Shown here: positions 5,254-60,679 of the stretch, one piece after another
Layout of the letters: the number at the start of each line of letters is the position of its first letter
Numbering within the stretch: position 1 is the stretch's first letter
NCBI GenBank assembly: GCA_965215015.1
Contig: OZ244042.1
Span: forward strand, 4,896,001 to 4,960,000
From: Candidatus Poribacteria bacterium
GTDB lineage: Bacteria; Poribacteria; WGA-4E; PCPOR2b
Length of the DNA: 64,000 bases
Reading direction: 5' to 3'
Notes under the pieces: model-generated
The model's input: the letters and a program-made list of their open reading frames with translations, nothing else
The model's database searches: none
What the model was told of the DNA's origin: nothing
Position numbers and translations under genes: made by a program

Positions 5254-6660
5254 ATGAACACTATTGTCATCTGCTGTGATACGCTTCGAGCAGATGTGGT
5301 AGATCACACTTGGGAAGATTACGTTGATACACCCCACCTCGATCAATTGCGGAAAACCAGCACGGTGTTCAATAATGCTTGGGGAGAAGGCGAGCCAACC
5401 ATCCCGATGCGGCGTGGTTTCTTCACAGGTTTGCGGTCCTACCCGTGGCGTTTCCATATTGATGACCGGGGCTCAGTCCCAAACATATACGGCTGGCACG
5501 CTATCCCTACAGCACAAATCACACTAGCGGAGCACCTGCTACTCAACGGTGTGGCAACGGGGTTGGTTAGCGATGTCTATCATATGTTCAAGCCGACAAT
5601 GAATTTCACACGCGGCTTTATGAGTTACGACTACATTCGTGGACAGGAATCGGACCGAGTGCGGAGCGGCCCCCTTTCCGCCATCAACATGAAACCTTAC
5701 CTGCCCGACGAAATTGCCAATCCGACAGACCGCCCCGGTATAGCACAATACCTGCTAAATATGCAGGATCGACGCGGGGAGGAGGATTACCTTGCCCCGC
5801 GTGTATTTCGCAGTGCGGCGCGGTGGATACAGGACAACCACGAAAATCAACCGTTCTTTCTCTGGATTGATAGCTTCACACCCCACGAATGCTGGGATCC
5901 GCCGATGCACTTTGCTGATCAGTATTTCAAAGCGGATGGCGTCAAGGATTATATCTATCCGCAGATGGTGCAGGATTATAAGGCTTTGACGGACGATGAG
6001 ATTCAACGCACGAAAGCCCTCTACTACGGCTATGTCACATTTGTCGATAAATGGATTGGCTATCTACTGAACGTCCTCACCGACCTGCGCCTGTGGGATG
6101 ATACGGTCATCTGCTTTGTCTCGGATCACGGCACCGAGTTGATGGACCATACCCGGTTCGGAAAGAATCCAGATGCAATGCACCCGTATAACTGTCGGCT
6201 CAATTTCTGGATACACCACCCGAATCCTGCATACCACGGCAAGACGATTGACGCTTTCGTGCAGAATATCGATCTGTTCCCAACACTCCTTTCCATCTTT
6301 GGTCTTGAGGGTGAATCGGTTGATGGCTATAATCTCCTGCCCATCATATCTGACCCACAGAAGGCACCGCGCGATCACGTCATTACTGGTTGGGGATCGA
6401 CCGCTGGGGTGCGCACACCCGAATGGCTCCTCATGCTTGAAACAGTAAACGCGGATGCCAATCCACGTCTATTCCATACAGCCAGTGATCCGAAGGAGAA
6501 GTATAACGTCGCTGCTGGTCACCCTGAAATTGTCAGTCAGTTGCAAGGGAAACTGGAAGATTTAATCGGAGGCTCACTGCCGACTACCTATACCCATCAA
6601 CCAACGATGGAACATAACGCGACGTTTGCTCAGTGGGCGCAAAGTAATCTAGTACGGTGA
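5254..6660 (+). CDS. Sulfatase/alkaline-phosphatase superfamily hydrolase
   Basis: DTLRAD, TIPMRRG at the C/SxPxR position, PFFLWIDSFTPHE, SDHG; AAGGAG RBS before ATG 5254. Confidence 0.85.
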   Translation: MNTIVICCDTLRADVVDHTWEDYVDTPHLDQLRKTSTVFNNAWGEGEPTIPMRRGFFTGLRSYPWRFHIDDRGSVPNIYGWHAIPTAQITLAEHLLLNGVATGLVSDVYHMFKPTMNFTRGFMSYDYIRGQESDRVRSGPLSAINMKPYLPDEIANPTDRPGIAQYLLNMQDRRGEEDYLAPRVFRSAARWIQDNHENQPFFLWIDSFTPHECWDPPMHFADQYFKADGVKDYIYPQMVQDYKALTDDEIQRTKALYYGYVTFVDKWIGYLLNVLTDLRLWDDTVICFVSDHGTELMDHTRFGKNPDAMHPYNCRLNFWIHHPNPAYHGKTIDAFVQNIDLFPTLLSIFGLEGESVDGYNLLPIISDPQKAPRDHVITGWGSTAGVRTPEWLLMLETVNADANPRLFHTASDPKEKYNVAAGHPEIVSQLQGKLEDLIGGSLPTTYTHQPTMEHNATFAQWAQSNLVR

Positions 6661-37770: not shown

Positions 37771-40152
37771 GTGAAACACCTGAGATTTTTCCTAGCCGTA
37801 TCATTGCCCCTCGGCATTCTCGCTGCCATATCCATATCTGTCGATGCACGCCCACTAGACCCAGGGTTACATAGTGCCATTCGGTCCGCCCGAAAATATA
37901 TCAATCCCAAGTCAAGTTACGTCCCCAGCGAAATTGAAAAGTGTTTTACAGACACCTTCAACACCCTCGCCCGAAACTGGGATCGGCTGCCAGCAATCTA
38001 TCAGCGCGAGTTTCAGGGGATTTTCCTGCGCCCGGGGCAGCCCGGTAGCCCCTACAGTTCCGTCAATTTGCCAAAGAAGTTCGATACCCTCCACTTTCGA
38101 TTCCACTACACGACTGTCGGCCCGCACGCGCCACCGCTTGAAGATGTCAATCCAATGAACGGGGTGCCGGATTACGTTGATATGTGTGCCGAGGCACATG
38201 AAAAATCCTTCCATGTCGAGGTTGACCTGATGGGCTTTAAGCGACCCTTTGACGATTTTTGGGTCGCAGAAAACGGCGGCAATCATAAATACGATGTATA
38301 CCTATTTCAGTTTCCGGCACTCGGTTTTACAACAACTGATTGGTATAATGGGCGGGTACGCCCGACCGTCGCGACTTTTGGCCCCTATTTTGCCCTAAAT
38401 ACCCGTTTGTACGACTATTTTGGCAAGTTAGAGGGTATCCGATACATGGAAACAACCGCTGCCCATGAATTACTGCACGGGATTCAGTTTGCCTACAACG
38501 CACGGATGCCGGGTTGGTTTATGGAGGCTTCAGCGACATGGATTGAGTCGAAAGTATACGATGGTGGACGGGTGGACGACCTCGACGATATCCCAGATCC
38601 TGACGAAATGGGTGAGACCGATGCCTATGACTATTACACCAGACAGCTTGGCATTTTTTTAGATCAGCCTGACATTGCTCTCGACAGTCGCGTCGGTTTG
38701 CACGAATATGCAGCGGTAATCTGGGTGTTTTACATGGCAGAGCGATTCGATGTCGATATTGTCCGGCAGTTTTATGGGGATGCAACCAGAGGCTCTTACC
38801 GCGAATTTGGTAACTTTTTCAATGTCTTTGCCGACCATGGTACAACGCTAGTTGAAGCGTTTAAGACATTTACCGAGTGGAACTACTTTACTCATAGCCG
38901 TGATGATGGGAAACACTATTTCAATGGGCATCGTTTCCCGCCGGTCGCCATTCATCCGCACGATGTACATAACGCCTATCCTGTTCGCGTTGATTTCGAT
39001 TCAGAGGCGATGCCAGAGCACTTCTCGGCACGCTATATTGTTTTTGAGCCTATCCCCGGCGTTGTGATGAATGAATTCGCAATCAAAGTTGATGGCGCCG
39101 ACATCGCCCCAATTGACATGAGTTCCCTCAGTCTTACAGACCGAAACCCAATTCAGGAAGAATTGAATCGACTCAATAATTTTGGCTTGCGCGGTTGGGG
39201 TGCAAAGTTTATCGTTGAAAAGCGGGACGGAACGCACGAAGTCCGAGAAGCGTTCACTTACCAGCGTTCTCAGGAAGGGCAAATCACATTCAACGATTTC
39301 GGGGGTGATATTAAGAAGATTACGCTCATCCTGATTAATGTGCATCCGGATGTCGAGCAGGTCATTATCCCCGGCGGAGACTATTTTGGCGGTGCTGTAA
39401 GCTATATGGCAGGGCGTCCACCCGCCGGGACCCTTTCGACCCCCACCGTCTCCCAGGAGGACGACGCTAGCGTGCGTGTACAGTGGCAGCTTGAAAATTT
39501 GAGCGATATTCGTGAGGTGGTTATCGTCCGAAAGCGATATACATCGTTGATTGAAACCGATGACCCGCAGCCATTCCAGACCGCCGCGGAAGTGCTGAAC
39601 GCAGCAGATCGGGATGACAATGGCATTCCCAACGATGACATCAACATCGTCGGACGGGTCAACGCAACGGACACACACTTTCAAGACACGACGATATTTC
39701 AAGATATTGATGTAGAGGATAACCGTTTCGATCCACAGGATACCCGCTACTTTTATGCTGTTGTGCCCGTTGATGCGATTGGCATCATGGGCACGCCGAG
39801 CATTGACCCAAACGGTATCACCCCTGTCTTTAACCCGTTAGCTATCCCCGCCGCTCCGATGCAGACTCGGCTACTCCAAAGTTACCCAAATCCGTTCAAT
39901 CCAGAGGTTTGGATCCCTTACGAGTTAGGAGCGGATGCCTCCGTATCAGTTGAAATCTACAATATATCAGGGCAGTTGGTACGGACATTGCCAATCGGTA
40001 TGAGAAAGCGTGGACAGTATATCGCTAAGGATAAAGCCGTCTACTGGGATGGGCGTACCCAGTTGGGAGAGCGAGCTGCCAGCGGTGTCTACTTCTATGT
40101 GCTGAAAGCTGGCGATTATGTCTCCATGCGGAAGATGGCGATTCTGAAGTAG
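37771..40152 (+). CDS. Secreted putative metalloprotease (MXAN_6640-like, HExxH) with C-terminal FlgD-Ig/T9SS-like domain
   Basis: Signal peptide, NGVPDYVD, TAAHELLHGIQFAY, WFMEASATW; C-terminal QSYPNPFNPEVWIPY...ASGVYFY. Confidence 0.82.
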   Translation: MKHLRFFLAVSLPLGILAAISISVDARPLDPGLHSAIRSARKYINPKSSYVPSEIEKCFTDTFNTLARNWDRLPAIYQREFQGIFLRPGQPGSPYSSVNLPKKFDTLHFRFHYTTVGPHAPPLEDVNPMNGVPDYVDMCAEAHEKSFHVEVDLMGFKRPFDDFWVAENGGNHKYDVYLFQFPALGFTTTDWYNGRVRPTVATFGPYFALNTRLYDYFGKLEGIRYMETTAAHELLHGIQFAYNARMPGWFMEASATWIESKVYDGGRVDDLDDIPDPDEMGETDAYDYYTRQLGIFLDQPDIALDSRVGLHEYAAVIWVFYMAERFDVDIVRQFYGDATRGSYREFGNFFNVFADHGTTLVEAFKTFTEWNYFTHSRDDGKHYFNGHRFPPVAIHPHDVHNAYPVRVDFDSEAMPEHFSARYIVFEPIPGVVMNEFAIKVDGADIAPIDMSSLSLTDRNPIQEELNRLNNFGLRGWGAKFIVEKRDGTHEVREAFTYQRSQEGQITFNDFGGDIKKITLILINVHPDVEQVIIPGGDYFGGAVSYMAGRPPAGTLSTPTVSQEDDASVRVQWQLENLSDIREVVIVRKRYTSLIETDDPQPFQTAAEVLNAADRDDNGIPNDDINIVGRVNATDTHFQDTTIFQDIDVEDNRFDPQDTRYFYAVVPVDAIGIMGTPSIDPNGITPVFNPLAIPAAPMQTRLLQSYPNPFNPEVWIPYELGADASVSVEIYNISGQLVRTLPIGMRKRGQYIAKDKAVYWDGRTQLGERAASGVYFYVLKAGDYVSMRKMAILK

Positions 40153-41546: not shown

Positions 41547-42377
41547 ATGAGCCTACCCATTATGCAGCCATTACAATTCATTAAAAAGAAGATTAAGCAA
41601 TTATTTTACGTCCTCTATCAGAAACGCCTTCAGCGGGAGGCGAGCCAATGGCAAATCCCTTATCATATCGGAATTATCTTGGACGGGAACCGCCGGTACG
41701 CGAAAACGGAAGGCTTTTTTGATGTCGCTAAACGGCAGTACGGACACTCCGAAGGAGGGGATAAGCTAGAGGAAGTCCTCCATTGGTGCGACGAATTGGG
41801 CGTCAAGATTGTCTCAATCTGGATCTGTTCCCTTGATAACTTCGTCAATCGCGAAGAGGAGGAAGTGGCGGAAATCTTCAATGTCATTGAAACAAAGATG
41901 CGATCGCTGCTCACCATCGAAGGACTCCACACCAATCAGATTAAGGTACGTCCCATGGGAGAACTGGAGTTACTGCCGCCAAGTCTCCAAGAAGCTATTC
42001 GCGATGTGGAGGAAGCGACAAAAAACTACGATAAATTTATCCTCAACGTCGCTGTGGCTTACGGTGGACGCGAGGAAATCGTCGAAGCGTTTCGGCGTTA
42101 CCTAAAATCGGAATTGAGGGAAGGCAAAGCACCGGACCAGATAGCATCGGAACTGAGTGCGGATAAGATTACCACACATCTCTACACCTCCAATCTCCCC
42201 GACCCAGATCTGATTATCCGAACCAGCGGCGAGATTCGACTCAGCGGCTTCATGCTCTGGCAAAGTGCGTATTCAGAATACTACTTCTGTGATACCTATT
42301 GGCCCGGTTTCAGGAAAATCGACTTCCTGCGGGCTATCCGGGACTATAGCCACCGGGAACGACGGTTCGGAAGATAG
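41547..42377 (+). CDS. uppS: cis-isoprenyl diphosphate synthase (UppS family)
   Basis: HIGIILDGNRRYA, AYGGREEI, PDLIIRTSGEIRLSGF; true start may be ATG 41562. Confidence 0.92.
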   Translation: MSLPIMQPLQFIKKKIKQLFYVLYQKRLQREASQWQIPYHIGIILDGNRRYAKTEGFFDVAKRQYGHSEGGDKLEEVLHWCDELGVKIVSIWICSLDNFVNREEEEVAEIFNVIETKMRSLLTIEGLHTNQIKVRPMGELELLPPSLQEAIRDVEEATKNYDKFILNVAVAYGGREEIVEAFRRYLKSELREGKAPDQIASELSADKITTHLYTSNLPDPDLIIRTSGEIRLSGFMLWQSAYSEYYFCDTYWPGFRKIDFLRAIRDYSHRERRFGR

Positions 42378-42618
42378 GCGACACGCACATACGAAAGAAA
42401 AACATCCCCCCAAGCGGAAGGAAGGGATAGCAACCAGGGGAGAGGCAATCTTAATTAGGTTCGTAGTAGCGCAATTCATTGCGCGTGAGAGATGGCAACC
42501 AGGGGAGAGCCACCCTTAATTGGGTTTGTAGTAGCGCAATTCATTGCGCGTCAGGGAGGGCAACCGGTGGGAGAGGCAAGACCCTATTGTCTCATGAAAC
42601 ATTACGCCCAGCACCCCC

Positions 42619-43569
42619 TCAGTGCGGTAATAAGGTGGCTTTCATCTCCCCCCAGTACTGTGGGAGCAGCCCCGGTTGAGAAGGGACAGACAGACGTGGA
42701 TTCCATTCCCGCCCCGGAACATCCGCACCCGGATTATCGGTCAACTGTATCAGCTGCTTGTCAACCAAACCGAAACGGTAGATATTCCATACCCCATCCG
42801 TTTGACCAGAAAAGAGTATCGAATCCCCATCAGCAGAGAACATTGCAACATCAAAAGCCATCCGTGGAACCGGCACTCTCACCGTCTTGAACACCTTCTG
42901 CCGTCCTGCTGGGTGCAGTGTAGCAATCACCGGGAACGAACTGTTGACACTCCAATCAACGGCTTCCGTGTATAAAATCCGATTTCCCCCCGGTGACCAG
43001 TCTCCCAAAAACATCCCTGTATTCGGTTTCCGTTCAGAAACCTTCCACTGGCCTGTGCCATCTATACGGATAACATCAATATCTACACCTGATTCAAAGA
43101 GAATCCATTCCCCATCCGGCGACCATCTCGGTTTTGAGGCAAACGGTAAGTCTGTTATCTGCTTAACATTGCTACCATCGGCATCCATTATGAACAGATT
43201 AACCATCTGGTCTTCGTTGCGGTTGTGATTACTACGAAACACAATCTGATTTCCGTCAGGAGACCAGTCAGGATAACCATCAATTGCCGGCCGCCGGGTG
43301 AGATTGCGCTGATTGCTACCATCGGCATCCATTACATATACCTCCCAATTTCCATCGCGTTTGCTATCGAACGCAATTTGTCGTCCGTTAGGGGACCAGA
43401 CAGGGACGGCATCACTCGCTTCGTTAAAGGTCAGTCGTGTCTGGTTGGTTCCGTCCGAGTTCATGGTGTAGATCTCGGCGTTGCCATCTCGCTTGGAGTA
43501 AAACACAATTTTGCCCTGAAGGGAGCTCGTGGCAAGCCACAGACAAGCCACGAGCAAAGAAACGCGCAT
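42619..43569 (-). CDS. Secreted TolB-like (PD40) beta-propeller, copy A1
   Basis: Signal peptide; PxWSPxGxxIxF repeats; LLPQYWGEMK tail. Confidence 0.88.
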   Translation of the reverse strand: MRVSLLVACLWLATSSLQGKIVFYSKRDGNAEIYTMNSDGTNQTRLTFNEASDAVPVWSPNGRQIAFDSKRDGNWEVYVMDADGSNQRNLTRRPAIDGYPDWSPDGNQIVFRSNHNRNEDQMVNLFIMDADGSNVKQITDLPFASKPRWSPDGEWILFESGVDIDVIRIDGTGQWKVSERKPNTGMFLGDWSPGGNRILYTEAVDWSVNSSFPVIATLHPAGRQKVFKTVRVPVPRMAFDVAMFSADGDSILFSGQTDGVWNIYRFGLVDKQLIQLTDNPGADVPGREWNPRLSVPSQPGLLPQYWGEMKATLLPH

Positions 43570-43824
43570 AAGACCTCCTTTAATCTATTTCAAAGAAATT
43601 ATCCCTTAATTGGGTTCGTAGTAGTGCAATTCATTGCACGTCAGGGAGGGCAACAGGGGGGGGAGAGGCAAGGCCCTATGGCTTGTGTTGCACTCATTCT
43701 TTACATGAGCGAAAACGGTATCCCGTCCCGATGCCGTTGTTTCATGAAACATTACGGCACCGGGACGGGATATTGCTACGAGCATCATAACTGGGACCCT
43801 GTTGCATTACGGCACATCTACCCC

Positions 43825-44775
43825 TCAGTGCGGTAATAAGGCAGATTTAATCTCCCCCCAATGCTTTGGAGCCAACCCCTGCGGTGAAACCGGCAAGCGC
43901 GGATTCCATTCGTGGGGAGAACTATCTTTGGCAGGAGAATCGGTCAACTGAAGGAGTTGACGGTCTCGGAGACGGAAACGGTAGACATCCCAGTTCCCCC
44001 CTTCCTTTCTACCGGCAAAGAGGATCGACTTCCCATCGGCACCCCAATCGGCGGCAGTCGAATCCATCTTCGGTATTGGCACCGGCTCACGTTTTTCCGG
44101 CCACAACGTCGCAATAATTATGGTTGAGTTTTTCACCGAGTCGTTGATGGAAGCCTTATACAGAATCTGTGTGCCATCCGGAGACCACCCGCCCAAAAAC
44201 ATCCCTGCCTCGGGAATAGGTTTGCTCACCCGCCGCCGTTTGGTGCCGTCGGCGTTTATCACATAAATTTGCCTCCGTTGATCTATTATTCCTCCAAAGG
44301 CGATTCTCTCCCCGTTAGGAGACCACTTCGGGGCGACGGCAAACTCTAGCTGTGTAACCTGTCTCACGTTACCGCCATCGGCATCCATCACAAAAATATT
44401 GAGATCGTGAGCATCACCGCTGTCCCGATCGCTCGTGAAGGCAATCTGTGAACCATCGGGCGACCAGTCAGGCGAGCTATCAAATGCCGGGTGCTGAGTC
44501 AGGTTCGTCTGGTTACCCCCATCGGCATCCATGACATAAAGCTCCTGGTTGCCATCCCGTTCGCTGCAAAAGACGATTTGCCGCCCGTTGGGGGACCAGG
44601 CGGGCGCAAAATCACCACCCGTCTGGTTATGCGTTAATCGTGTTTCACCTTTCCCGTCAGAACGCATCATGTAGATTTCAGTACGTCCATCCCGATGCGA
44701 ATGAAACACGATTTTACCTTGGGCGTTGCTTACGCTTAGCCAGAGACTGAGGGATATCGTTAAGAAACGCATCAT
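43825..44775 (-). CDS. Secreted TolB-like beta-propeller, divergent copy B
   Basis: PAWSPNGRQIVF and PDWSPDGSQIAF repeats; HWGEIKSALLPH tail. Confidence 0.88.
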   Translation of the reverse strand: MMRFLTISLSLWLSVSNAQGKIVFHSHRDGRTEIYMMRSDGKGETRLTHNQTGGDFAPAWSPNGRQIVFCSERDGNQELYVMDADGGNQTNLTQHPAFDSSPDWSPDGSQIAFTSDRDSGDAHDLNIFVMDADGGNVRQVTQLEFAVAPKWSPNGERIAFGGIIDQRRQIYVINADGTKRRRVSKPIPEAGMFLGGWSPDGTQILYKASINDSVKNSTIIIATLWPEKREPVPIPKMDSTAADWGADGKSILFAGRKEGGNWDVYRFRLRDRQLLQLTDSPAKDSSPHEWNPRLPVSPQGLAPKHWGEIKSALLPH

Positions 44776-45183
44776 TCCTCCTCTATTGTATTCTAAATGG
44801 GTGCTCTACTTCCACTTTTAGTTGATGAAGTAAGCTTTCCGCGGAAGCTTCGCGAATCCAAAAAAGTAGGCGCATATACGAAAGAAAAACATCAACCGAT
44901 TAACAGCGCAAGAAACGATGGGTCATGTGAAAAGAAAGTGCAAAGCACGAAGAGAAGGCCCCCTTCGTACCCCCTAACCCTCCGCAAGCGATGGGAAATT
45001 TGCAAGCTTGGGGAGAGCCACCCTTAATTGGGTTCGTAGTAGCGCAATTCATTGCGCGTCAGGGAGGGCAACCGGTGGGAGAGGCAAGCCCCTATGGCTG
45101 CTGTTGCACTCATTCTTTCCATGAGCGAAAACGGTATCCCGTCCCGATGCCGTTGTCTCATGAAACATTACGGCACAGCTCCC

Positions 45184-46134
45184 TCAGTGCGGTAATAAGG
45201 GGGCTTTAATCTCCCCCCAGTACTGTGGGAGCAGCCCCTGTTGCGAAGGGACAGACAGACGGGGATTCCATTCCCGCCCCGGAACATCCGCACCCGGATT
45301 ATCGGTCAACTGTATCAGCTGCTTGTCAACCAACCCGAAACGGTAGATATTCCATACCCCATCCGTTTGACCAGAAAAGAGTATAGATTCCCCATCAGCC
45401 GAGAACATTGCGACCTTAAAAGGCCTCCGTGGAACCGGCACTCTCACCGTCTTGAACACCTTCTGCCGGCCTGCTGGGTGCAGTGTAGCCATCACCGGGA
45501 ACGAACTGTTGACACTCCAATCAACGGCTTCCGTATATAAAATCCGATTTCCACCCGGTGACCAGTCTCCCAAAAACATCCCTGTATTCGGTTTCCGTTC
45601 AGAAACCTTCCACTGTCCTGTGCCATCTATACGGATAACATCAACATCTACCCCTGATTCAAAGAGAATCCATTCCCCATCCGGCGACCATCTCGGTTTT
45701 GAGGCAAACGGTAAGTGGGTTATCTGCTTAACATTGCTACCATTGGCATCCATTATGAAAAGATTAATCATCTGGTCTTCGTTACCGTTGTGATTGCTAT
45801 CAAACACAATCTGATTTCCGTCAGGAGACCAGTCAGGATAAACATCAATTGCCGGCCGACGGGTGAGATTGCGCTGATTGCCACCATCGGCATCCATTAC
45901 ATATACCTCAGCGTTCCCATCTCGATAACTATGGAACGCAATCTGGCGACCGTTAGGGGACCAAACGGGGGTGGAATCCCTCGCCTCGTTAAAGGTCAGT
46001 CGTGTCTGGTTGGTTCCGTCCGAGTTCATGGTGTAGATCTCGGCGTTGCCATCTCGCTTGGAGTAAAACACAATTTTGCCCCAAAGGGGGCTCGTGACCA
46101 GCCAAAGGCTCGCCACGAGCAAAGAAAGGCGCAT
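45184..46134 (-). CDS. Secreted TolB-like beta-propeller, copy A2
   Basis: 316 aa, near-identical to A1/A3/A4/A5. Confidence 0.88.
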   Translation of the reverse strand: MRLSLLVASLWLVTSPLWGKIVFYSKRDGNAEIYTMNSDGTNQTRLTFNEARDSTPVWSPNGRQIAFHSYRDGNAEVYVMDADGGNQRNLTRRPAIDVYPDWSPDGNQIVFDSNHNGNEDQMINLFIMDANGSNVKQITHLPFASKPRWSPDGEWILFESGVDVDVIRIDGTGQWKVSERKPNTGMFLGDWSPGGNRILYTEAVDWSVNSSFPVMATLHPAGRQKVFKTVRVPVPRRPFKVAMFSADGESILFSGQTDGVWNIYRFGLVDKQLIQLTDNPGADVPGREWNPRLSVPSQQGLLPQYWGEIKAPLLPH

Positions 46135-46332
46135 AAAACCTCCTTCAGTCTATTTCAAAGAAATTATCCATTAATTGGGTGCGTAGTAGCGCGATTCATT
46201 GCGCGTCAGGGAGGGCAACCGGTGGGAGAGGCAAGCCCCTATGGCTGCTGTTGCACTCATTCTTTCCATGAGCGAAAACGGTATCCCGGCCCGATGCCGT
46301 TGTCTCATGAAACATTACGGCCCAGTGCCCCC

Positions 46333-47283
46333 TCAGTGCGGTAATAAGGGGGCTTTCATCTCCCCCCAGTACTGTGGGAGCAGCCCCTGTTGAGAAGGGA
46401 CAGACAGACGTGGATTCCATTCATGGGGACCGGCATCCGCCCCCGGATTATCGGTCAACTGTATCAGCTGCTTGTCAACCAACCCGAAACGGTAGATATT
46501 CCATACCCCATCCGTTTGACCAGAAAAGAGTATCGAATCCCCATCAGCCGAGAACATTGCGACCTTAAAAGGCCTCCGTGGAACCGGCACTCTCACCGTC
46601 TTGAACACCTTCTGCCGGCCTGCTGGGTGCAGTGTAGCAATCACCGGGAACGAACTGTTGACATGCCAATCAACGGCTTCCGTGTATAAAATCCGATTTC
46701 CCCCCGGCGACCAGTCTCCCAAAAACATCCCTGTATTCGGTTTTCGTTCAGAAACCTTCCACTGGCCTGTGCCGTCTATACGGATAACATCAATATCTAC
46801 CCCTGATTCAAAGAGAATCCACTCCCCATCCGGCGACCATCTCGGTTTTGAAGCGAACGGTAAGTCTGTTATCTGCTTAACATTGCTACCATCGGCATCC
46901 ATTATGAAAAGATTAAGCATCTGGTCTTCGTTGCGGTTGTGATTGCTATCAAATACAATCTGATTTCCGTCAGGAGACCAGTCAGGATAAACATCAATTG
47001 CCGGCCGCCGGGTGAGATTGCGCTGATTGCCACCATCGGCATCCATTACATATACCTCAGCGTTCCCATCTCGATAACTATGGAACGCAATCTGTCGTCC
47101 GTTAGGGGACCAAACAGGGGTGGAATCCCTCGCCTCGTTAAAGGTCAGTCGTGTCTGGTTGGTTCCGTCCGAGTTCATGGTGTAGATCTCGGCGTTGCCA
47201 TCTCGCTTGGAGTAAAACACAATTTTGCCCCAAAGGGGGCTCGTGGCAAGCCACAGACAAGCCACGAGCAAGGAAAGGCGCAT
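46333..47283 (-). CDS. Secreted TolB-like beta-propeller, copy A3
   Basis: 316 aa, near-identical to the other A copies. Confidence 0.88.
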   Translation of the reverse strand: MRLSLLVACLWLATSPLWGKIVFYSKRDGNAEIYTMNSDGTNQTRLTFNEARDSTPVWSPNGRQIAFHSYRDGNAEVYVMDADGGNQRNLTRRPAIDVYPDWSPDGNQIVFDSNHNRNEDQMLNLFIMDADGSNVKQITDLPFASKPRWSPDGEWILFESGVDIDVIRIDGTGQWKVSERKPNTGMFLGDWSPGGNRILYTEAVDWHVNSSFPVIATLHPAGRQKVFKTVRVPVPRRPFKVAMFSADGDSILFSGQTDGVWNIYRFGLVDKQLIQLTDNPGADAGPHEWNPRLSVPSQQGLLPQYWGEMKAPLLPH

Positions 47284-47324
47284 AAGACCTCCTTTAGTCT
47301 ATTTCAAAGAAATTATCCATTTCA

Positions 47325-47383
47325 AAGGAATTATCCCTAGTATTCATTCTGACCTCAGGGACAGGATCCTCGGCGATACCGAT
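47325..47383 (-). pseudogene. Duplicate of the 3' end of the secreted-protein gene 50870-51373
   Basis: Matches 50882-50941 (ATTATCCCTAGTATTCATTCTGACCTCAGGGACAGGATCCTCGGCGATACCGAT). Confidence 0.85.
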
Positions 47384-47387
47384 AAGG

Positions 47388-47482
47388 GGCTTCATGCTCC
47401 GGCAAAGTGCGTACTCAGAATACTATTTTTGCGATACCTATTGGCCCTGCTTCAGAAAGATTGACTTCCTCCGAGCAATCCG
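47388..47482 (+). pseudogene. Displaced fragment of the uppS 3' end
   Basis: Aligns to 42246-42340 with 13 mismatches in 95 nt; translates [31 protein letters not shown]. Confidence 0.9.
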
Positions 47483-47528
47483 TCGGCGTGGAGTTATCCC
47501 ACCTTTATAGGCAGAGTGCGTAGCGTCC

Positions 47529-48509
47529 TTAGGGTCGCAATACTTCAGATCTAATCTCCCCCCAGAACAGAGAGAGTGACTGCCGGGGCCTGACAGACAA
47601 TCGAGGATTCCATTCATGGGGACCGGCATCCGGCCCCGGATTATCGGTCAACTGTATCAATTTCCGGTCGGTCAGATGAAAACGATAGATATTCGAGTCG
47701 TTATTTCTCTTCCCCGAAAAAAGGATGGACTTCCCATCCCCAGCGAAGGTAGTAGTTTGGAATGGCAGCCGTGGCACCGGCACCCGGTACCATCGTTTCA
47801 CCTTCCTTCGGCCGACTAAGTTCAACGTGGCAATGACCGCAAAGGAATTCTTAAGGTTGGAGTCAACCGTCTCCTTATACAGGATCCGTTTCCCATCGGG
47901 AGACCACCCGCCCAAATGCATCCGCGTGTAAGGTCGCGGTTTTGACACCTTGAAACGACCGGTGCCATTGGCGTTGATGACAAAAATCTCCCGGCCATTC
48001 CCTATAACCCCTTCAAAAGCCATCCGTTTCCCATCCGGCGACCATTTGGGTGTTGAAGCAAATTCTAAGTCTGTAATCTGCTTGATGTTGCTCCCATCGG
48101 CGTCCATCACGAAAATGTTGAAATTTTCGTTCCGAGTGCTAGTAAACGCAATCTGTGAACTGTTGGGATGCCAATCTGCATAATTATCCAGGCCGGGATA
48201 ATGGGTCAACCTCCGTTGGTTTCCCCCATCCGCGTCCATCACATAAATCTCCGCGTTTGACTCCCCTCCATGCTTATGCGGGTCCTTATGATCATCGCGG
48301 AAGCTATGGAACGCAATCTGTCGTCCGTTGGGGGACCAGACAGGGGCAACATCTGTGGCTTCGTTAAACGTAAGTCGCACCTGACCGTTACCACTGGAAT
48401 CCATCATGTAGATTTCGTAATTTCCAGCCTGCTTGGAATAAAACACAATTTTGCCCCAAAGGGGGCCCGTGGCAAGCCACAGACAAGCCACGAGCAAGGA
48501 AAGGCGCAT
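47529..48509 (-). CDS. Secreted TolB-like beta-propeller, divergent copy C
   Basis: A-type signal peptide with divergent core; FWGEIR tail. Confidence 0.88.
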   Translation of the reverse strand: MRLSLLVACLWLATGPLWGKIVFYSKQAGNYEIYMMDSSGNGQVRLTFNEATDVAPVWSPNGRQIAFHSFRDDHKDPHKHGGESNAEIYVMDADGGNQRRLTHYPGLDNYADWHPNSSQIAFTSTRNENFNIFVMDADGSNIKQITDLEFASTPKWSPDGKRMAFEGVIGNGREIFVINANGTGRFKVSKPRPYTRMHLGGWSPDGKRILYKETVDSNLKNSFAVIATLNLVGRRKVKRWYRVPVPRLPFQTTTFAGDGKSILFSGKRNNDSNIYRFHLTDRKLIQLTDNPGPDAGPHEWNPRLSVRPRQSLSLFWGEIRSEVLRP

Positions 48510-48705
48510 AAGACCTCCTTTAGTCTATGTGAAAGAAATTATCCATTAATTGGGTGCGTAGTAGCGCAATTCATTGCGCGTCAGGGAGGGCAACCGGGGG
48601 GAGAGGCAAGCCCCTATGGCTGCTGTCGCACTCATTCTTTCCATGAGCGAAAGCGGTATCCCGGCCCGATGCTGTTGTCTCATGAAACATTACGGCACAG
48701 CTCCC

Positions 48706-49656
48706 TCAGTGCGGTAATAAGGGGGCTTTAATCTCCCCCCAGTACTGTGGGAGCAGCCCCTGTTGCGAAGGGACAGACAGACGGGGATTCCATTCCCGTC
48801 CCGGAACATCCGCCCCCGGATTATCGGTCAACTGTATCAGCTGCTTGTCAACCAACCCGAAACGGTAGATATTCCATACCCCATCCGTTTGACCAGAAAA
48901 GAGTATCGAATCCCCATCAGCAGAGAACATTGCAACATCAAAAGTCATCCGTGGAACCGGCACTCTCACCGTCTTGAATACCTTCTGCCGGCCTGCTGGG
49001 TGCAGTGTAGCAATGACCGGGAACGAACTGTTGACATGCCAATCAACGGCTTCCGTGTATAAAATCCGATTTCCACCCGGTGACCAGTCTCCGAGAAACA
49101 TCCCTGTATTCGGTTTCCGTTCAGAAACCTTCCACTGCCCTGTGCCATCTATACGGATAACATCAATATCTATCCCTGATTCAAAGAGAATCCACTCCCC
49201 ATCCGGCGACCATCTCGGTTTTGAGGCAAAGGGTAAGTGGGTTATCTGCTTAACATTGCTACCATCGGCATCCATTATGAAAAGATTAATCATCTGGTCT
49301 TCGTTACGGTTGTGATTGCTATCAAACACAATCTGATTTCCGTCAGGAGACCAGTCAGGATAACCATCAATTGCCGGCCGCCGGGTGAGATTGCGTTGAT
49401 TGCCACCATCGGCATCCATTACATATACCTCAGCGTTCCCATCTCGATAACTATGGAACGCAATCTGGCGACCGTTAGGGGACCAAACGGGGGTGGAATC
49501 CCTCGCCTCGTTAAAGGTCAGTCGTGTCTGGTTGGTTCCGTCCGAGTTCATGGTGTAGATCTCGGCGTTGCCATCTCGCTTGGAGTAAAACACAATTTTG
49601 CCCCAAAGGGGGCTCGTGGCAAGCCACAGACAAGCCACGAGCAAGGAAAGGCGCAT
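48706..49656 (-). CDS. Secreted TolB-like beta-propeller, copy A4
   Basis: 316 aa, near-identical to the other A copies. Confidence 0.88.
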   Translation of the reverse strand: MRLSLLVACLWLATSPLWGKIVFYSKRDGNAEIYTMNSDGTNQTRLTFNEARDSTPVWSPNGRQIAFHSYRDGNAEVYVMDADGGNQRNLTRRPAIDGYPDWSPDGNQIVFDSNHNRNEDQMINLFIMDADGSNVKQITHLPFASKPRWSPDGEWILFESGIDIDVIRIDGTGQWKVSERKPNTGMFLGDWSPGGNRILYTEAVDWHVNSSFPVIATLHPAGRQKVFKTVRVPVPRMTFDVAMFSADGDSILFSGQTDGVWNIYRFGLVDKQLIQLTDNPGADVPGREWNPRLSVPSQQGLLPQYWGEIKAPLLPH

Positions 49657-49908
49657 AAGACCTCCTTTAATCTATGTGAAAGAGATTATCCATTAATTGG
49701 GTTCGTAGTAGCGCAATTCATTGCGCGTCAGGGAGGGCAACCGGGGGGAGAGGCAGTCCCCTATGGCTTCTATTGCACTCATTCTTTACATGAGCGAAAA
49801 CGGCATCCCGTCCCGATGCCGTTGTTCCATGAAACATTACGGCACCGGGACATGATGCTGCTACGAGCCTCATAACTGGGCCCGGTTGCATTACGGCCCA
49901 GCGACCCC

Positions 49909-50859
49909 TCAGTGCGGTAATAAGGGGGCTTTCATCTCCCCCCAGTACTGTGGGAGCAGTCCCTGTTGAGGGGGGACGGACAGACGGGGATTCCATTCCC
50001 GCCCCGGAACATCCGCCCCCGGATTATCGGTCAACTGTATCAGCTGCTTGTCGACCAACCCGAAACGGTAGATATTCCATACCCCATCCGTTTGACCAGA
50101 AAAGAGTATCGAATCCCCATCAGCAGAGAACATTGCAACATCAAAAGCCATCCGTGGAACCGGCACTCTCACCGTCTTGAACACCTTCTGCCGGCCTGCT
50201 GGGTGCAGTGTAGCAATCACCGGGAACGAACTGTTGACACTCCAATCAACGGCTTCCGTATATAAAATCTGATTTCCACCCGGTGACCAGTCTCCCAGAA
50301 ACATCCCTGTATTCGGTTTCCGTTCAGAAACCTTCCACTGTCCTGTGCCATCTATGCGGATAACATCAATATCTACCCCTGATTCAAAGAGAATCCACTC
50401 CCCATCCGGCGACCATCTCGGTTTTGAGGCAAAGGGTAAGTCTGTTATCTGCTTAACATTGCTACCATCGGCATCCATTATGAACAGATTAACCATCTGG
50501 TCTTCGTTACGGTTGTGATTGCTATCAAACACAATCTGATTTCCGTCAGGAGACCAGTCAGGATAACCATCAATTGCCGGCCGACGGGTGAGATTGCGCT
50601 GATTGCTACCATCGGCATCCATTACATATACCTCCCAATTTCCATCGCGTTTGCTATCGAACGCAATTTGTCGTCCGTTAGGGGACCAAACAGGGGCGGC
50701 ATCACTCGCTTCGTTAAAGGTCAGTCGTGTCTGGTTGGTTCCGTCGGAGTTCATGGTGTAGATCTCGGCGTTGCCATCTCGCTTGGAGTAAAACACAATT
50801 TTGCCCCAAAGGGGGCTCGTGGCAAGCCACAGACAAGCCACGAGCAAAGAAAGGCGCAT
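49909..50859 (-). CDS. Secreted TolB-like beta-propeller, copy A5 (promoter-proximal)
   Basis: 316 aa; AAGGAGG RBS 10 nt after the upstream gene's stop. Confidence 0.88.
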   Translation of the reverse strand: MRLSLLVACLWLATSPLWGKIVFYSKRDGNAEIYTMNSDGTNQTRLTFNEASDAAPVWSPNGRQIAFDSKRDGNWEVYVMDADGSNQRNLTRRPAIDGYPDWSPDGNQIVFDSNHNRNEDQMVNLFIMDADGSNVKQITDLPFASKPRWSPDGEWILFESGVDIDVIRIDGTGQWKVSERKPNTGMFLGDWSPGGNQILYTEAVDWSVNSSFPVIATLHPAGRQKVFKTVRVPVPRMAFDVAMFSADGDSILFSGQTDGVWNIYRFGLVDKQLIQLTDNPGADVPGREWNPRLSVPPQQGLLPQYWGEMKAPLLPH

Positions 50860-50869
50860 AGGACCTCCT

Positions 50870-51373
50870 TTAGTTTATGCGAAAGAAATTATCCCTAGTA
50901 TTCATTCTGACCTCAGGGACAGGATCCTCGGCGATACCGATGAGATTGATTCGGGTGTAAGCATCAATATAAAAACGACCCCTTGGCAGTTCTCTAATAT
51001 CAGCTTCATGTGTTTTCTCTATGAAGGCACTCGAGTCATTATTTATACCCCACTCAGGGACTGTGACTATTTCGGTAGTGCCTTCAGGCGGTTTTTTCTT
51101 CACAATCATTTCTTCACTCGGCTGAAGTCGCATCACTCGATGAGTAAACTCGTAAGTTAGGTCAACTGCCTCATCGCTATCATTTTCGACGAAAAACTGG
51201 TGATAGCTATAGGTATGGGTCGCAGATTTATAGAGGTTACTGACGGTTACATCCCAGTATACCTCTTCGTTGTACCCATCAGTTGTTTCCAAGGCATAAA
51301 CCCCTACCACGGAAATCAATAGAACCGTCATAGCGATAAAAAGCGTTGATTTGCATCTTTGTGAAGTCAACAT
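50870..51373 (-). CDS. Small secreted hypothetical protein (about 167 aa, beta-rich)
   Basis: GAGGAGG RBS before ATG 51373; signal peptide LFIAMTVLLISVVGVYA. Confidence 0.75.
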   Translation of the reverse strand: MLTSQRCKSTLFIAMTVLLISVVGVYALETTDGYNEEVYWDVTVSNLYKSATHTYSYHQFFVENDSDEAVDLTYEFTHRVMRLQPSEEMIVKKKPPEGTTEIVTVPEWGINNDSSAFIEKTHEADIRELPRGRFYIDAYTRINLIGIAEDPVPEVRMNTRDNFFRIN

Positions 51374-51524: not shown

Positions 51525-51541
51525 AGCAAGACCCATGCCAA
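51525..51541 (-). promoter_or_regulatory. sigma54 (-24/-12) promoter
   Basis: Minus strand TTGGCATGGGTCTTGCT with canonical GG-N10-GC spacing, downstream of a bEBP gene. Confidence 0.8.
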
Positions 51542-51764: not shown

Positions 51765-52715
51765 TCATCGGATGCCATATTTTTTTAACCGGCGGGATAA
51801 AGCATGTCGGCTCAATCCAAGTTGCTGGGCGGTTTTAGTAATGTTACCTTGATTCGCCGCCAAGGCGCGACGAATCTGCTCCTGCTCGGCAAGCATTTCC
51901 TCGACCGGGGCTGGTAACGGCCTCGCTGTGCCAATCCCTGTTCGTGAAAAAGAAAACATCTCAACGTCAGGAAAGTGAAAATGGAGGTGTTTGGGTTGAA
52001 TCGCCCCCCCTTCACTTACAATAAACGCATGCTCAATCATGTTCCTCAATTCACGCACATTGCCCGGGAAGGCGTATTCCTTCAAAGCCTCGGCAGCTTT
52101 AGGAGTCAATGGCGGGGTTGATACTCCCATTTGAGTCGCAACCGCACTCAGTTGGTATTTAGCAAGGAGCAGAATATCCTCTTTCCTTTCGCGTAGGGGT
52201 GCAATCTCAATCAAAATTCCAGCCAAGCGAAAGTAGAGGTCTGCCCGAAATAGTCCTGCCTCGACCTTAGCCTTGAGGTCCGCATTGGTGGCCGCTATTG
52301 TCCGAATATCTACCTTTTTACTCTGCGTTGCACCGATTGGTGTGATGACACTATTGTTCAGTGCCCGTAGGAGTTTAACCTGGGTTTCGATTGGCATGTC
52401 ACCGACCTCGTCGAGAAAGAGTGTCCCCTTGTCAGCACGTTCAAAGCAGCCTATCTGATCCGCTATTGCTCCAGTGAATGCACCACGGACATGGCCGAAG
52501 AAGATGGACTCTGCCAGTTCAAAAGGAATCGCACCACAATTGACGTCCACAAATGGTGCCGATGCCCGGGGCCCTCTAGCACGAATGGATCGGGCAACCA
52601 GTTCTTTACCGACGCCGGTTTCCCCGGTAATTAAAACCGAAGTACTGTCGTTGTTGCGGAGTTGGCGAATGGTTGTCTGAATGGCTCGCATAGTATCACT
52701 GTCACCAAGTAACAT
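51765..52715 (-). CDS. sigma54-dependent enhancer-binding protein (AAA+ and Fis HTH, no N-terminal sensor domain)
   Basis: GETGVGKELVA, GAFTGA, LFLDEVG, FRADLYFRL, PGNVREL, C-terminal HTH; in-frame TGA 4 codons upstream of the ATG. Confidence 0.92.
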   Translation of the reverse strand: MLLGDSDTMRAIQTTIRQLRNNDSTSVLITGETGVGKELVARSIRARGPRASAPFVDVNCGAIPFELAESIFFGHVRGAFTGAIADQIGCFERADKGTLFLDEVGDMPIETQVKLLRALNNSVITPIGATQSKKVDIRTIAATNADLKAKVEAGLFRADLYFRLAGILIEIAPLRERKEDILLLAKYQLSAVATQMGVSTPPLTPKAAEALKEYAFPGNVRELRNMIEHAFIVSEGGAIQPKHLHFHFPDVEMFSFSRTGIGTARPLPAPVEEMLAEQEQIRRALAANQGNITKTAQQLGLSRHALSRRLKKYGIR

Positions 52716-53214: not shown

Positions 53215-53997
53215 CTACCGGCGATGTGCAATTTCGATGAGCGTATCACCGACAATTTTGTAGCGGTGAGAATCTAGACGCTCAACATCCGCCCGTTTGG
53301 ATTTCGCATCAACCGCTTTTTCTTCCCACATCTCTGTGATAAATTCGTACGGTGGATCGATAGTAAACGGTTCGATTTTCCCAATTTTTTCCATCGCCAT
53401 CCGACCACCTACCTGCAAGAGTTTTCTGGCTTTCACGGGCGCCAGCGACAACGCACTGGTCTGCGAGAGCCCCTTCTTCGTCGTGACCGACACGATGTTC
53501 GGCACGTACCGTTGAGTCTCAGCAATTGCGGTATCGTCCCCACTGATGAATACCGTTGGGATACCGAATGAGCCTGCGACTGCGGCGTTAAACCCAATTT
53601 CCCCTACCAACTCCCCATTAAGCCAGCAGTTGGCAATTGTGCGCGAGCTCCAGCTATGACAGAGGACCCCGCGTTCCGTGTTGCCCATCGAATGATGTCC
53701 GTAAAGAAAAAACGCGTCAAACGACCCATTCAACCCCCAAGGTGCTGAAATTGGACGGCCAATGATCATCTGTACCTCCGGGTGCATCAGTTCATAGTCA
53801 ATTCCCCCAGGCCCATGACCGTCTAAGAACCAGACCTCCTGCGCCCCACCCTCCAATACACCATCAACGAGCGCATTCACCTCCAATGTTGAGAGCCGTT
53901 TCGCTTGCTCATAGTACTTTGCATCGCTATAGGTCTGCTGGTGAAAGTCAACGACACCGGCAGCACCTTCCAAGTCACCGAGTATAAATATTCGCAT
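53215..53997 (-). CDS. M55 family D-aminopeptidase (DppA-like)
   Basis: DLEG, DGHG, YGHH, VLCHS, GEIGFNA, SGDD. Confidence 0.9.
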   Translation of the reverse strand: MRIFILGDLEGAAGVVDFHQQTYSDAKYYEQAKRLSTLEVNALVDGVLEGGAQEVWFLDGHGPGGIDYELMHPEVQMIIGRPISAPWGLNGSFDAFFLYGHHSMGNTERGVLCHSWSSRTIANCWLNGELVGEIGFNAAVAGSFGIPTVFISGDDTAIAETQRYVPNIVSVTTKKGLSQTSALSLAPVKARKLLQVGGRMAMEKIGKIEPFTIDPPYEFITEMWEEKAVDAKSKRADVERLDSHRYKIVGDTLIEIAHRR

Positions 53998-55246: not shown

Positions 55247-55630
55247 GCCTCATGTTCAAAGAAAGTGCCCCTTCGTACCCCCCAAGCCCCCCTGCAAGCG
55301 GAAGGAGGGAGCACAACCGGGGGAGAAGTCAGCTTAATTAGGTTCGTAGTAGCGCGATTCATTGCGCGTCAGGGAGCACAACCGGGGGAGCGGCAATCTT
55401 AATTGGGTTCGTAGTAGCGCAATTCATTGCGCGTCAGGGAGCACAACCGGGGGAGAGACACCCTTAATTAGGTTCGTAGTAGCGCAATTCATTGCGCGTC
55501 AGGGAGGGCAAACAAGGGAGAAGTCAGCTTAATTAGGTTCGTAGTAGCGCAATTTATTGCGCGTCAGGGAGCACAACCAAGGGAGAGGCAAGGCCCTATG
55601 GCTGCTGTCGCACTCATTCTTTCCATGAGC
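55247..55630. mobile_element. MITE-like element with four 65-bp REP-containing tandem units
   Basis: GTAGTAGCGCAATTCATTGCGC-type motif at 55346, 55411, 55476 and 55541; ends CTCATGTTCAAAGAAAGTG and CACTCATTCTTTCCATGAG. Confidence 0.75.
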
Positions 55631-60137: not shown

Positions 60138-60679
60138 GGCTCATATTAAAAGAAAGTGCAAAGCACGAAGAGAAGTGCCCCTTCGTACCCCCCAAGGCCC
60201 CCTAACCCCCCGCAAGCGAGGAGAGGGATGGCAACCAGGGGAGCGGCAATCTTAATTGGGTTTGTAGTAGCGCAATTCATCGCGCGTGAGAGAGGGCAAC
60301 CAGGGGAGAGCCACCCTTAATTGGGTTTGTAGTAGCGCAATTTATTGCGCGTCAGGGAGGACAACCGGGGGAGCGGCAATCTTAATTATGTTCGTAGTAG
60401 CGCAATTCATGGCGCGTCAGGAATGACAACCAGGGGAGAGACAATCTTAATTAAGTTTGTAGTAGTGCAATTCATGGCGCGTCAGGGAGGACAACCGGGG
60501 GAGCGACAAGCTTAATTGGGTTTGTAGTAGCGCAATTCATGGCGCGTCAGGGATGACAACCAGGGGAGAGACAATCTTAATTAAGTTTGTAGTAGTGCAA
60601 TTCATGGCGCGTCAGGAATGACAACCAGGGGAAGAGGCAAGGCCCTATGGCCTCTGTTACACCCATTCTTTATATGGGC
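60138..60679. mobile_element. MITE-like element with six 65-bp REP-containing tandem units
   Basis: GTAGTAG at 60264, 60329, 60394, 60459, 60524 and 60589; imperfect TIRs GGCTCATATTAAAAGAAAGTGCAA / TTACACCCATTCTTTATATGGGC. Confidence 0.75.

What the first reader, a model, noticed from the sequence alone, without database searches (positions are those of the whole stretch)
42619..50859. The five A copies are combinatorial mosaics of sequence blocks
Seen: polymorphic blocks give incompatible groupings. SDAxP..FDSKRDGNW (A1,A5) vs RDSTP..FHSYRDGNA (A2,A3,A4); IDVY and RRPFKV (A2,A3); DWHVN (A3,A4); ITHLP and GEIK (A2,A4); DAGPHEW shared by A3 and the divergent copy C. C also carries the A-type 5' UTR and signal peptide, and B shares the LLPH-stop end. 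Inference: frequent gene conversion or unequal crossing-over shuffles blade segments. Many changes fall just before the PxWSP motifs, where propeller top-face residues usually lie.
Basis: partly seen in the sequence, partly recalled or inferred. Interest (0 to 1): 0.7.

Follow-up and report, generated by a model that had tools for sequence, protein, structure and literature searches.

The report
Block-swapping tandem propeller gene copies
Five near-identical neighbouring copies of a likely secreted propeller-protein gene in a probable sponge-symbiont bacterium have swapped short DNA blocks with each other and likely with imported relatives, an ordinary fate of duplicated genes, though here most amino-acid changes sit on the predicted binding face.

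Summary
Observation confirmed. It is unlikely to be an assembly artefact: the genome is one contig, an independent run matches the copies, and another run holds block junctions absent from this genome. 19 of 26 variable residues of the six-bladed TolB-like propeller map by topology to the top face, but pN/pS there is 0.46 (about 1 at the most variable sites), so positive selection is not shown. 'Combinatorial' is overstated: A1 and A5 share all 8 blocks. Copy C is followed by a 98-bp foreign uppS fragment, which points to import from a sister species. The array follows a sensor-less sigma54 activator and an Ig-like head gene, in a slot empty in 11 of 18 congeners. Mosaicism is this genome's norm: 4 of 5 testable multicopy families show it, including a dispersed non-propeller gene. 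No reverse transcriptase or nearby recombinase was found. This scan reported the same pattern at another array of this genome. Verdict: a new example of recombining tandem paralogues, like S. aureus lpl; ligand unknown.

The parts
42619..43569 (-). A1, PD40 (TolB-like) six-bladed propeller with predicted signal peptide, 316 aa
43825..44775 (-). B, divergent propeller paralogue (53% aa to A1) with the same last 15 nt and an A-type downstream spacer
45184..46134 (-). A2 propeller copy
46333..47283 (-). A3 propeller copy
46399..46466 (-). Tract of A3 shared with C (64 of 68 nt to 47592-47659), holds the DAGPHE block
47324..47386 (-). Duplicated 3' tail of the head gene (61 of 63 nt to 50882-50944) in front of A3
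47385..47482 (+). 98-bp uppS fragment, 86% to the genome's own uppS, 12 of 14 differences at third codon positions; inferred foreign allele
47529..48509 (-). C, divergent propeller (58% aa to A1) with an A-type leader; body closer to congeners' genes at the same slot
48706..49656 (-). A4 propeller copy
49909..50859 (-). A5 propeller copy, first of the array
50607..50710 (-). Largest exchanged block (gene nt 150-253) in A5; same allele in A1 at 43317-43420
50870..51373 (-). Head gene, 167 aa, N-terminal hydrophobic helix plus predicted Ig-like beta-sandwich, no Pfam or NCBIfam family
51525..51541 (-). sigma54-type -24/-12 promoter motif (consensus match only)
51765..52715 (-). sigma54 activator, AAA+ and Fis-type HTH only, no N-terminal sensor domain
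46135..46332 (-). Typical A-type spacer built from dispersed intergenic repeat units; similar spacers at 43570-43824, 44990-45183, 48510-48705, 49657-49908
42430..42575 (.). 2.2 tandem copies of the 65-bp intergenic unit at the downstream end of the array
41547..42377 (+). uppS-type isoprenyl transferase, conserved left flank of the variable slot
53215..53997 (-). DppA-like D-aminopeptidase, conserved right flank of the slot

Best explanation
The five A genes are tandem copies of a likely secreted six-bladed TolB-like propeller that have exchanged short in-register DNA blocks, likely by ordinary RecA-type gene conversion and unequal crossing-over, while selection likely keeps the propeller core fixed and leaves the predicted top-face loops free to vary. 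Shown: the mosaic pattern, its clustering along the gene, strong constraint off the top face (pN/pS 0.07), tracts shared with C, and junctions in another run that this genome lacks. Inferred: a head gene plus propeller unit sits under a sigma54 promoter in the uppS-dppA slot; it was amplified with help from the repeat-built spacers; C came with a piece of a sister species' uppS by homology at the A-type leader and an illegitimate joint at the other end; old alleles from sister lineages feed the pool that is then shuffled. The proteins likely work as periplasmic or surface binding modules whose partner sits on the top face; the partner is unknown.
For: PHI p = 5e-5, synonymous-only p 2e-4 to 6e-4; 0 of 150 clonal simulations reached p <= 0.0034; incompatibility is 0.07 under 50 nt and 0.30-0.68 beyond. 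Six incompatible site pairs lie within 31 nt. Run X5: all 7 listed pieces inside the gene have the difference count of a G000 copy; run X6: 4 of 8 listed pieces fit no copy, one joining A3's DAGPHE block to A5's 3' alleles within 30 nt. P0006 and P0007 are further combinations. Model pLDDT 87, TolB top hit TM 0.74. Top face 19 of 101 positions variable against 7 of 171. Both A alleles occur in six outgroup proteins at 16 of 35 variable sites. Foreign-looking uppS fragment. Two recA, mutS and mutL present, no RVT_1 match. 4 of 5 testable clusters of four or more copies are PHI-positive.
Against: One genome cannot separate conversion, crossing-over and import. The PHI signal rests on two blocks. 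MutS and MutL are present, which by established knowledge should hinder exchange with 68%-identical C; the shared tracts are short and sit in conserved stretches. Raw reads were not available and Logan contigs can merge paths over spans longer than 31 nt. Top-face assignment is from strand topology, with boundaries set by me, not from coordinates. No RNA run was listed, so expression is untested.
Confidence: 0.75

Rival explanations
1. Same mechanics, but the array is a selected repertoire: diversifying or balancing selection on the top face keeps alternative binding specificities (host, phage or competitor ligands), and recombination is maintained because it produces them.
For: Position 98 varies in 7 of 8 independent recent clusters of this family and position 112 in 6 of 8. 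Non-synonymous changes favour the top face over synonymous-only ones (19:7 against 13:27, p = 0.001). All seven copies are intact with a ribosome-binding site. Alleles are shared with sister lineages.
Against: pN/pS is 0.24 overall, 0.46 on the top face, 0.115/0.093 at 35 independently defined hot sites, and 0.94 pooled over 8 clusters: not above 1. A dispersed non-propeller gene is as mosaic. Most congener arrays sampled hold diverged copies, 60-84% nt, with only two pairs at 93-96%.
Confidence: 0.35
2. The mosaics are assembly or polishing chimeras of collapsed repeats or mixed strains.
For: No raw reads could be laid; CheckM-type contamination 3.9%; run X1 depths suggest more than one strain (about 340 against 450-470).
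Against: Single 5,943,281-base contig without N, which implies long reads (inference). X5 contigs match A4 nt 643-926 and A5 nt 294-561 with 0 differences. Six incompatible pairs fit inside one 31-mer.
Confidence: 0.04
3. A programmed antigenic-variation system: A5, behind the promoter, is the expression site and the downstream copies are silent donors, as in vlsE/vls or pilE/pilS.
For: One sigma54 motif ahead of the array; segmental, in-register blocks; a terminator-like hairpin at 44942-44973 before B and A1.
Against: All copies are full length with leader and ribosome-binding site; mosaicism is strongest among A2, A3 and A4, not in A5; silent pilS copies lack promoters and ribosome-binding sites (PMC4534519, passages).
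Confidence: 0.07
4. Recurrent point mutation at tolerant sites (homoplasy) without recombination.
For: Clonal simulations can give as many incompatible pairs; 19 scattered sites alone give no PHI signal.
Against: Runs of linked synonymous and non-synonymous differences (17 sites in 104 nt; 6 in 26 nt), the 64 of 68 nt tract shared by A3 and C, and the synonymous-only PHI result.
Confidence: 0.03

Closest known systems
Staphylococcus aureus lpl tandem paralogue cluster (Tsuru and Kobayashi 2008, PMC2568036; abstract and first part of the Discussion read)
   Same: Tandem, intact, surface-directed paralogues reshuffled by homologous recombination; one-end-homologous, one-end-illegitimate events are mentioned.
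   Different: lpl crossovers fall in one central conserved region and swap halves, with small conversion tracts minor; here many short blocks along the gene are exchanged, and a foreign flank points to import between species.
Wolbachia WSP loop shuffling (Baldo et al. 2010, PMC2843615; abstract read)
   Same: Symbiont protein whose exposed loops are recombined on a conserved scaffold.
   Different: WSP is one outer-membrane barrel gene recombining between strains, with diversifying selection reported; here paralogues in one operon, and no omega above 1 shown.
Podospora HNWD WD40 repeats (PMC2873952; abstract read) and highly repetitive prokaryotic WD40 proteins (PMC5587647; passages read)
   Same: Propeller scaffold, concerted evolution, variation at predicted interaction hotspots.
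   Different: Those shuffle near-identical blades inside one gene; here whole genes exchange equivalent positions, the repeats are PD40, and there is no NTPase or effector domain.
TolB beta-propeller (PDB 2w8b, 2hqs, 4jml)
   Same: Six-bladed PD40 fold, TM 0.74; solved TolB complexes with Pal and colicin peptides are among the hits.
   Different: 17% identity, below the TIGR02800 cut-off (227 against 343 bits), propeller only, 31 paralogues, no tol-pal neighbours.
Silent-cassette gene conversion (Borrelia vlsE, Neisseria pilE/pilS; PMC4534519, passages read)
   Same: Segmental in-register mosaics.
   Different: No promoterless or truncated donor propellers; no evidence of one-way flow.

Membership tests
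Tandem paralogue array evolving by interlocus recombination (lpl-like) | Head-to-tail paralogues of high identity | tested here: met
   Five copies at 93-97% nt among seven genes
Tandem paralogue array evolving by interlocus recombination (lpl-like) | Incongruent history along the gene | tested here: met
   PHI p = 5e-5; simulations 0 of 150
Tandem paralogue array evolving by interlocus recombination (lpl-like) | Arrangement or block combination differs between strains | tested here: met
   X6 pieces 9, 10, 15, 16 fit no G000 copy; P0006, P0007; short-read contigs only, no whole second array
Tandem paralogue array evolving by interlocus recombination (lpl-like) | RecA dependence | not testable with these tools
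   Two recA genes are present; dependence needs genetics
Silent-cassette antigenic variation (vls, pilS) | Truncated or promoterless donor cassettes lacking leader and ribosome-binding site | tested here: not met
   All seven ORFs intact with leader and AAGGAGG-type site; only the head gene has a tail fragment
Silent-cassette antigenic variation (vls, pilS) | Single expression site, one-way transfer | not testable with these tools
   No RNA holder listed
Diversity-generating retroelement | Reverse transcriptase | tested here: not met
   No PF00078 match in G000, 98% complete; control rang in 3 of 14
Diversity-generating retroelement | Changes confined to template adenines in a C-terminal variable repeat | tested here: not met
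   Differences involve all bases and span the gene
Shufflon or integron-type site-specific system | Adjacent recombinase or integrase | tested here: not met
   None among the array's neighbours or 30 further window ORFs scanned, 5 of which had no Pfam hit
Shufflon or integron-type site-specific system | Fixed recombination sites, inversions | tested here: inconclusive
   All genes co-oriented; 3 inverted pairs, none flanking genes; no formal breakpoint-motif search
TolB (Tol-Pal) | Six-bladed PD40 propeller | tested here: met
TolB (Tol-Pal) | Full-length equivalog score and tol-pal context | tested here: not met
   227 bits against cut-off 343; neighbours are uppS, head gene, activator, dppA
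Positively selected recognition repertoire (HNWD or WSP-like) | omega above 1 at binding-face sites | tested here: inconclusive
   pN/pS 0.9-1.2 at 35 hot sites, simple pairwise counts, few sequences

The most novel reading that the evidence does not exclude
A genus-wide Poribacteria 'head plus propeller' module works as a recombining binding repertoire: sigma54-driven arrays of intact secreted propellers whose top-face pocket residues (98, 112, 52-55, 68-75, 237-240, 284-287) are kept polymorphic by selection, reshuffled between copies and restocked by import from sister species at a fixed chromosomal slot, giving a sponge symbiont adjustable recognition without silent cassettes, reverse transcriptase or a dedicated recombinase.
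Probability: 0.22. Interest if true: 0.65.

Novelty: new member of a known kind. Interest (0 to 1): 0.33.

Why it matters
WD40 and PD40 proteins are reported as abundant or enriched in sponge symbionts and are proposed to act in host interaction (PMC3909097 and PMC9531527, passages read), but their partners are unknown. This array gives a natural allelic series on one scaffold, with a short list of candidate specificity residues that recur across independent clusters, so a binding test is easy to design. As a mechanism it is ordinary paralogue recombination. I found no paper on these arrays in five searches; supplements were not read.

Tried and rejected
Complex prediction of propeller (19-294) with the head protein (27-167): no verdict, score 0.00, not evidence either way. 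Atlas search of the head protein gave no answer. No RNA holder listed. The search for related loci in metagenome contigs gave only distant relatives, 32-51% identity, no second copy of the array. No Logan contig spans the array. Long-range exchange: A2/A3/A4 share 43 of 45 nt with two paralogues near 0.91 Mb, but 13 of 434 diverged pairs reach 43 or more and the stretch is a conserved repeat, so this is suggestive only. The raw incompatible share was rejected as a test. Positive selection was looked for and not shown. The head protein's fold matches (best Z 8.9, rmsd 3.7, 118 aligned, MspA rim domain; many Ig-like sandwiches at Z 6-8) name no function. Sigma70-like hits in the array are repeats of the same coding sites and were not used. 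The IS-like 8-copy cluster was PHI-negative with 8 informative sites. The search of earlier findings by sequence returned nothing.
Full report
What is there. The minus strand from 52715 to 42619 reads: a sigma54 activator with AAA+ and HTH domains only, a -24/-12 motif at 51525-51541, a 167-aa head gene, then seven PD40 propeller genes in the order A5, A4, C, A3, A2, B, A1. The window lies in a single 5,943,281-base contig without N. The best named relative of the family, at 62% identity and E 5e-124 against at most 9e-49 for the other 78 loci, is a Candidatus Poribacteria record; that identity is the level seen in same-genus genomes. The sponge habitat is my inference from the phylum (PMC3909097, passages).

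Observation. The five A copies are 951 nt, ungapped, and 32-64 nt apart. Of 45 informative sites, 386 of 990 pairs are incompatible; the best tree explains 24 of 42 two-state sites; Rm is 11; PHI gives p = 5e-5 at three window sizes and 2e-4 to 6e-4 on 23 synonymous-only sites. In 150 clonal simulations with hot sites (somewhat fewer informative sites, mean 24) the incompatible share averaged 0.30 and reached 0.52, so that share alone proves nothing, but no simulation reached p <= 0.0034. The signal holds without block 150-253 and is lost when block 710-735 is also removed. Two of 30 triplet tests pass Bonferroni. A1 and A5 agree at all eight blocks; the three-way conflict is among A2, A3 and A4.

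Not an artefact, and probably ongoing. Thirteen listed runs of eight studies hold part of the stretch, all as short-read contigs. In run X5 all seven listed pieces inside the gene carry the difference count of one G000 copy, including A4 nt 643-926 and A5 nt 294-561. In run X6, whose flank differs from G000 at 21 of about 1,890 bases, four of eight listed pieces fit no G000 copy. One 172-nt piece at depth 26 joins A3's DAGPHE block to A5's alleles at nt 873-900; sites 860-889 fit in one 31-mer, so this joint is not a path choice. A 299-nt piece joins the A1/A5 block to I123 and D140. The piece tables were cut (78 more pieces not shown). Cluster members P0006 and P0007, from 2.6-2.8 kb contigs, are further combinations with a few new alleles; they could be chimeric. 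In X6 the C pieces have depth 5-6 against 21-23 for the flanks and B, a hint that C is absent from part of that population.

Where the changes fall. The AlphaFold2 model (first row P0005, which is A1; mean pLDDT 87) is a six-bladed propeller with a low-confidence tail after residue 295; TolB is the top structural match, TM 0.74, 17% identity. Using strand topology, with the top face defined by me as the d-a loops with the start of strand a and the b-c loops, 19 of 26 variable mature positions are on top (19 of 101 against 7 of 171, p = 1e-4; against bottom loops p = 0.004), while synonymous-only codons split 13:27. The variable positions are also the variable ones among 116 more distant family members (entropy 2.0 against 1.1 bits, p = 4e-6). 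pN/pS is 0.24 overall, 0.46 on top, 0.07 elsewhere. At 35 top-face sites picked by outside entropy it is 0.115/0.093 in A and 0.94 pooled over eight recent clusters of the genome; position 98 varies in seven clusters and 112 in six. This fits a free or diversifying binding face; it does not show positive selection.

Where the blocks come from. The largest block differs at 15-18% against 3-5% for the rest of the gene, and both A alleles occur among six outgroup proteins at 16 of 35 variable sites, so much of the variation is likely old or imported. C has an A-type first 50 nt (98%) and shares 64 of 68 nt with A3, but its body is closer to genes at the same slot in congeners. The C-A3 spacer is a scar: 98 bp of uppS, 86% identical to the genome's own copy and 85-90% to 18 congeners', with 12 of 14 differences at third positions, joined to the last 63 bp of the head gene. 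I infer that C arrived with the uppS of a sister species in which a C-like gene abuts uppS, the layout seen in G004. The other spacers are built from dispersed intergenic repeat units, which would supply extra homology for amplification (inference).

Context. The family has 31 members in 12 regions of this genome, one broken by a stop, and matches at E <= 1e-60 in 19 of 19 same-genus genomes and 0 of 21 others searched. A head-like gene or remnant precedes the first propeller in 10 of the 12 regions, judged by eye and alignment, and 5 of 20 strict sigma54 motifs of the genome lie 650-690 nt before a propeller. The head protein is predicted to be an Ig-like sandwich behind a hydrophobic helix. 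The uppS-dppA slot has no propeller or activator in 11 of 18 congeners and holds an activator gene or piece with zero to four propellers in seven. Congener arrays sampled are mostly diverged, so recent amplification is a trait of this lineage.

Control. Of 37 clusters of similar ORFs in the genome, five have four or more copies and enough sites; four are PHI-positive at p = 5e-4: this array, two other propeller arrays, and a dispersed 2.8-kb gene whose start resembles DUF1156 DNA methylases (label recalled, not from a call). Mosaicism is therefore general for multicopy genes here. The genome has two recA, mutS, mutL and two sigma54 matches, and no RVT_1 match.

Comparison and verdict. It works like the S. 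aureus lpl cluster (PMC2568036) with WSP- or HNWD-like concentration of change on an exposed face (PMC2843615, PMC2873952, PMC5587647). It fails the tests for silent-cassette systems, DGRs and TolB proper. Five literature searches found no paper on these arrays; supplements were not read. This scan noted the same pattern at the 2.91-Mb array, which I confirmed by PHI. Best reading, 0.75: ordinary homologous recombination plus occasional import, filtered by purifying selection on the core. A selected binding repertoire is compatible and untested. New member of a known kind; interest 0.33.

Noticed in passing
window 55306-55578, 60224-60632, 42430-42575: Tandem arrays of a 65-bp intergenic unit (4.2, 6.3 and 2.2 copies); part of the unit has 36 good matches in the genome and one sits in each A-type spacer.
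   Followed up: partly
L130:1124-1597 (G000 about 1.1026 Mb): In-frame fusion of the N-terminal half of a sigma54 activator to the C-terminal end of a head gene, directly before a propeller gene; looks like an internal deletion of the same module.
   Followed up: no
L133:3923-4249 and 5582-5812; L136 spacers: Head-gene tail fragments precede later propeller copies in other arrays, as at window 47324-47386.
   Followed up: partly
G000 177504, 1614597, 2661352, 3782151: Four dispersed copies of a 2.8-kb gene, 89-93% identical and strongly mosaic (165 informative sites, PHI p = 5e-4); resembles a DUF1156 methylase by recall.
   Followed up: partly
G000 5341486-5346790: A four-copy array of a second PD40 propeller subfamily, also mosaic.
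   Followed up: partly
G000 2269144 and 4242169: Two full-length recA genes, and two sigma54 DNA-binding-domain matches at 872123 and 2521280.
   Followed up: no
L129:7179-8739: Three tandem 168-178 aa paralogues of unknown family between propeller sub-operons.
   Followed up: no
window 49909-49980 and other family members: All propellers end in a low-confidence tail of the type PRLSVxxQGLLPxxWGEIK; other secreted proteins of the genome end similarly, possibly a sorting signal.
   Followed up: no
window 37771-40152: 793-aa protein with a C-terminal FlgD/Por-secretion-tail-like domain and an HELLH motif suggesting a metalloprotease.
   Followed up: no
G000 5790220-5791209 (L139): Propeller paralogue with a TGA at codon 2.
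   Followed up: no
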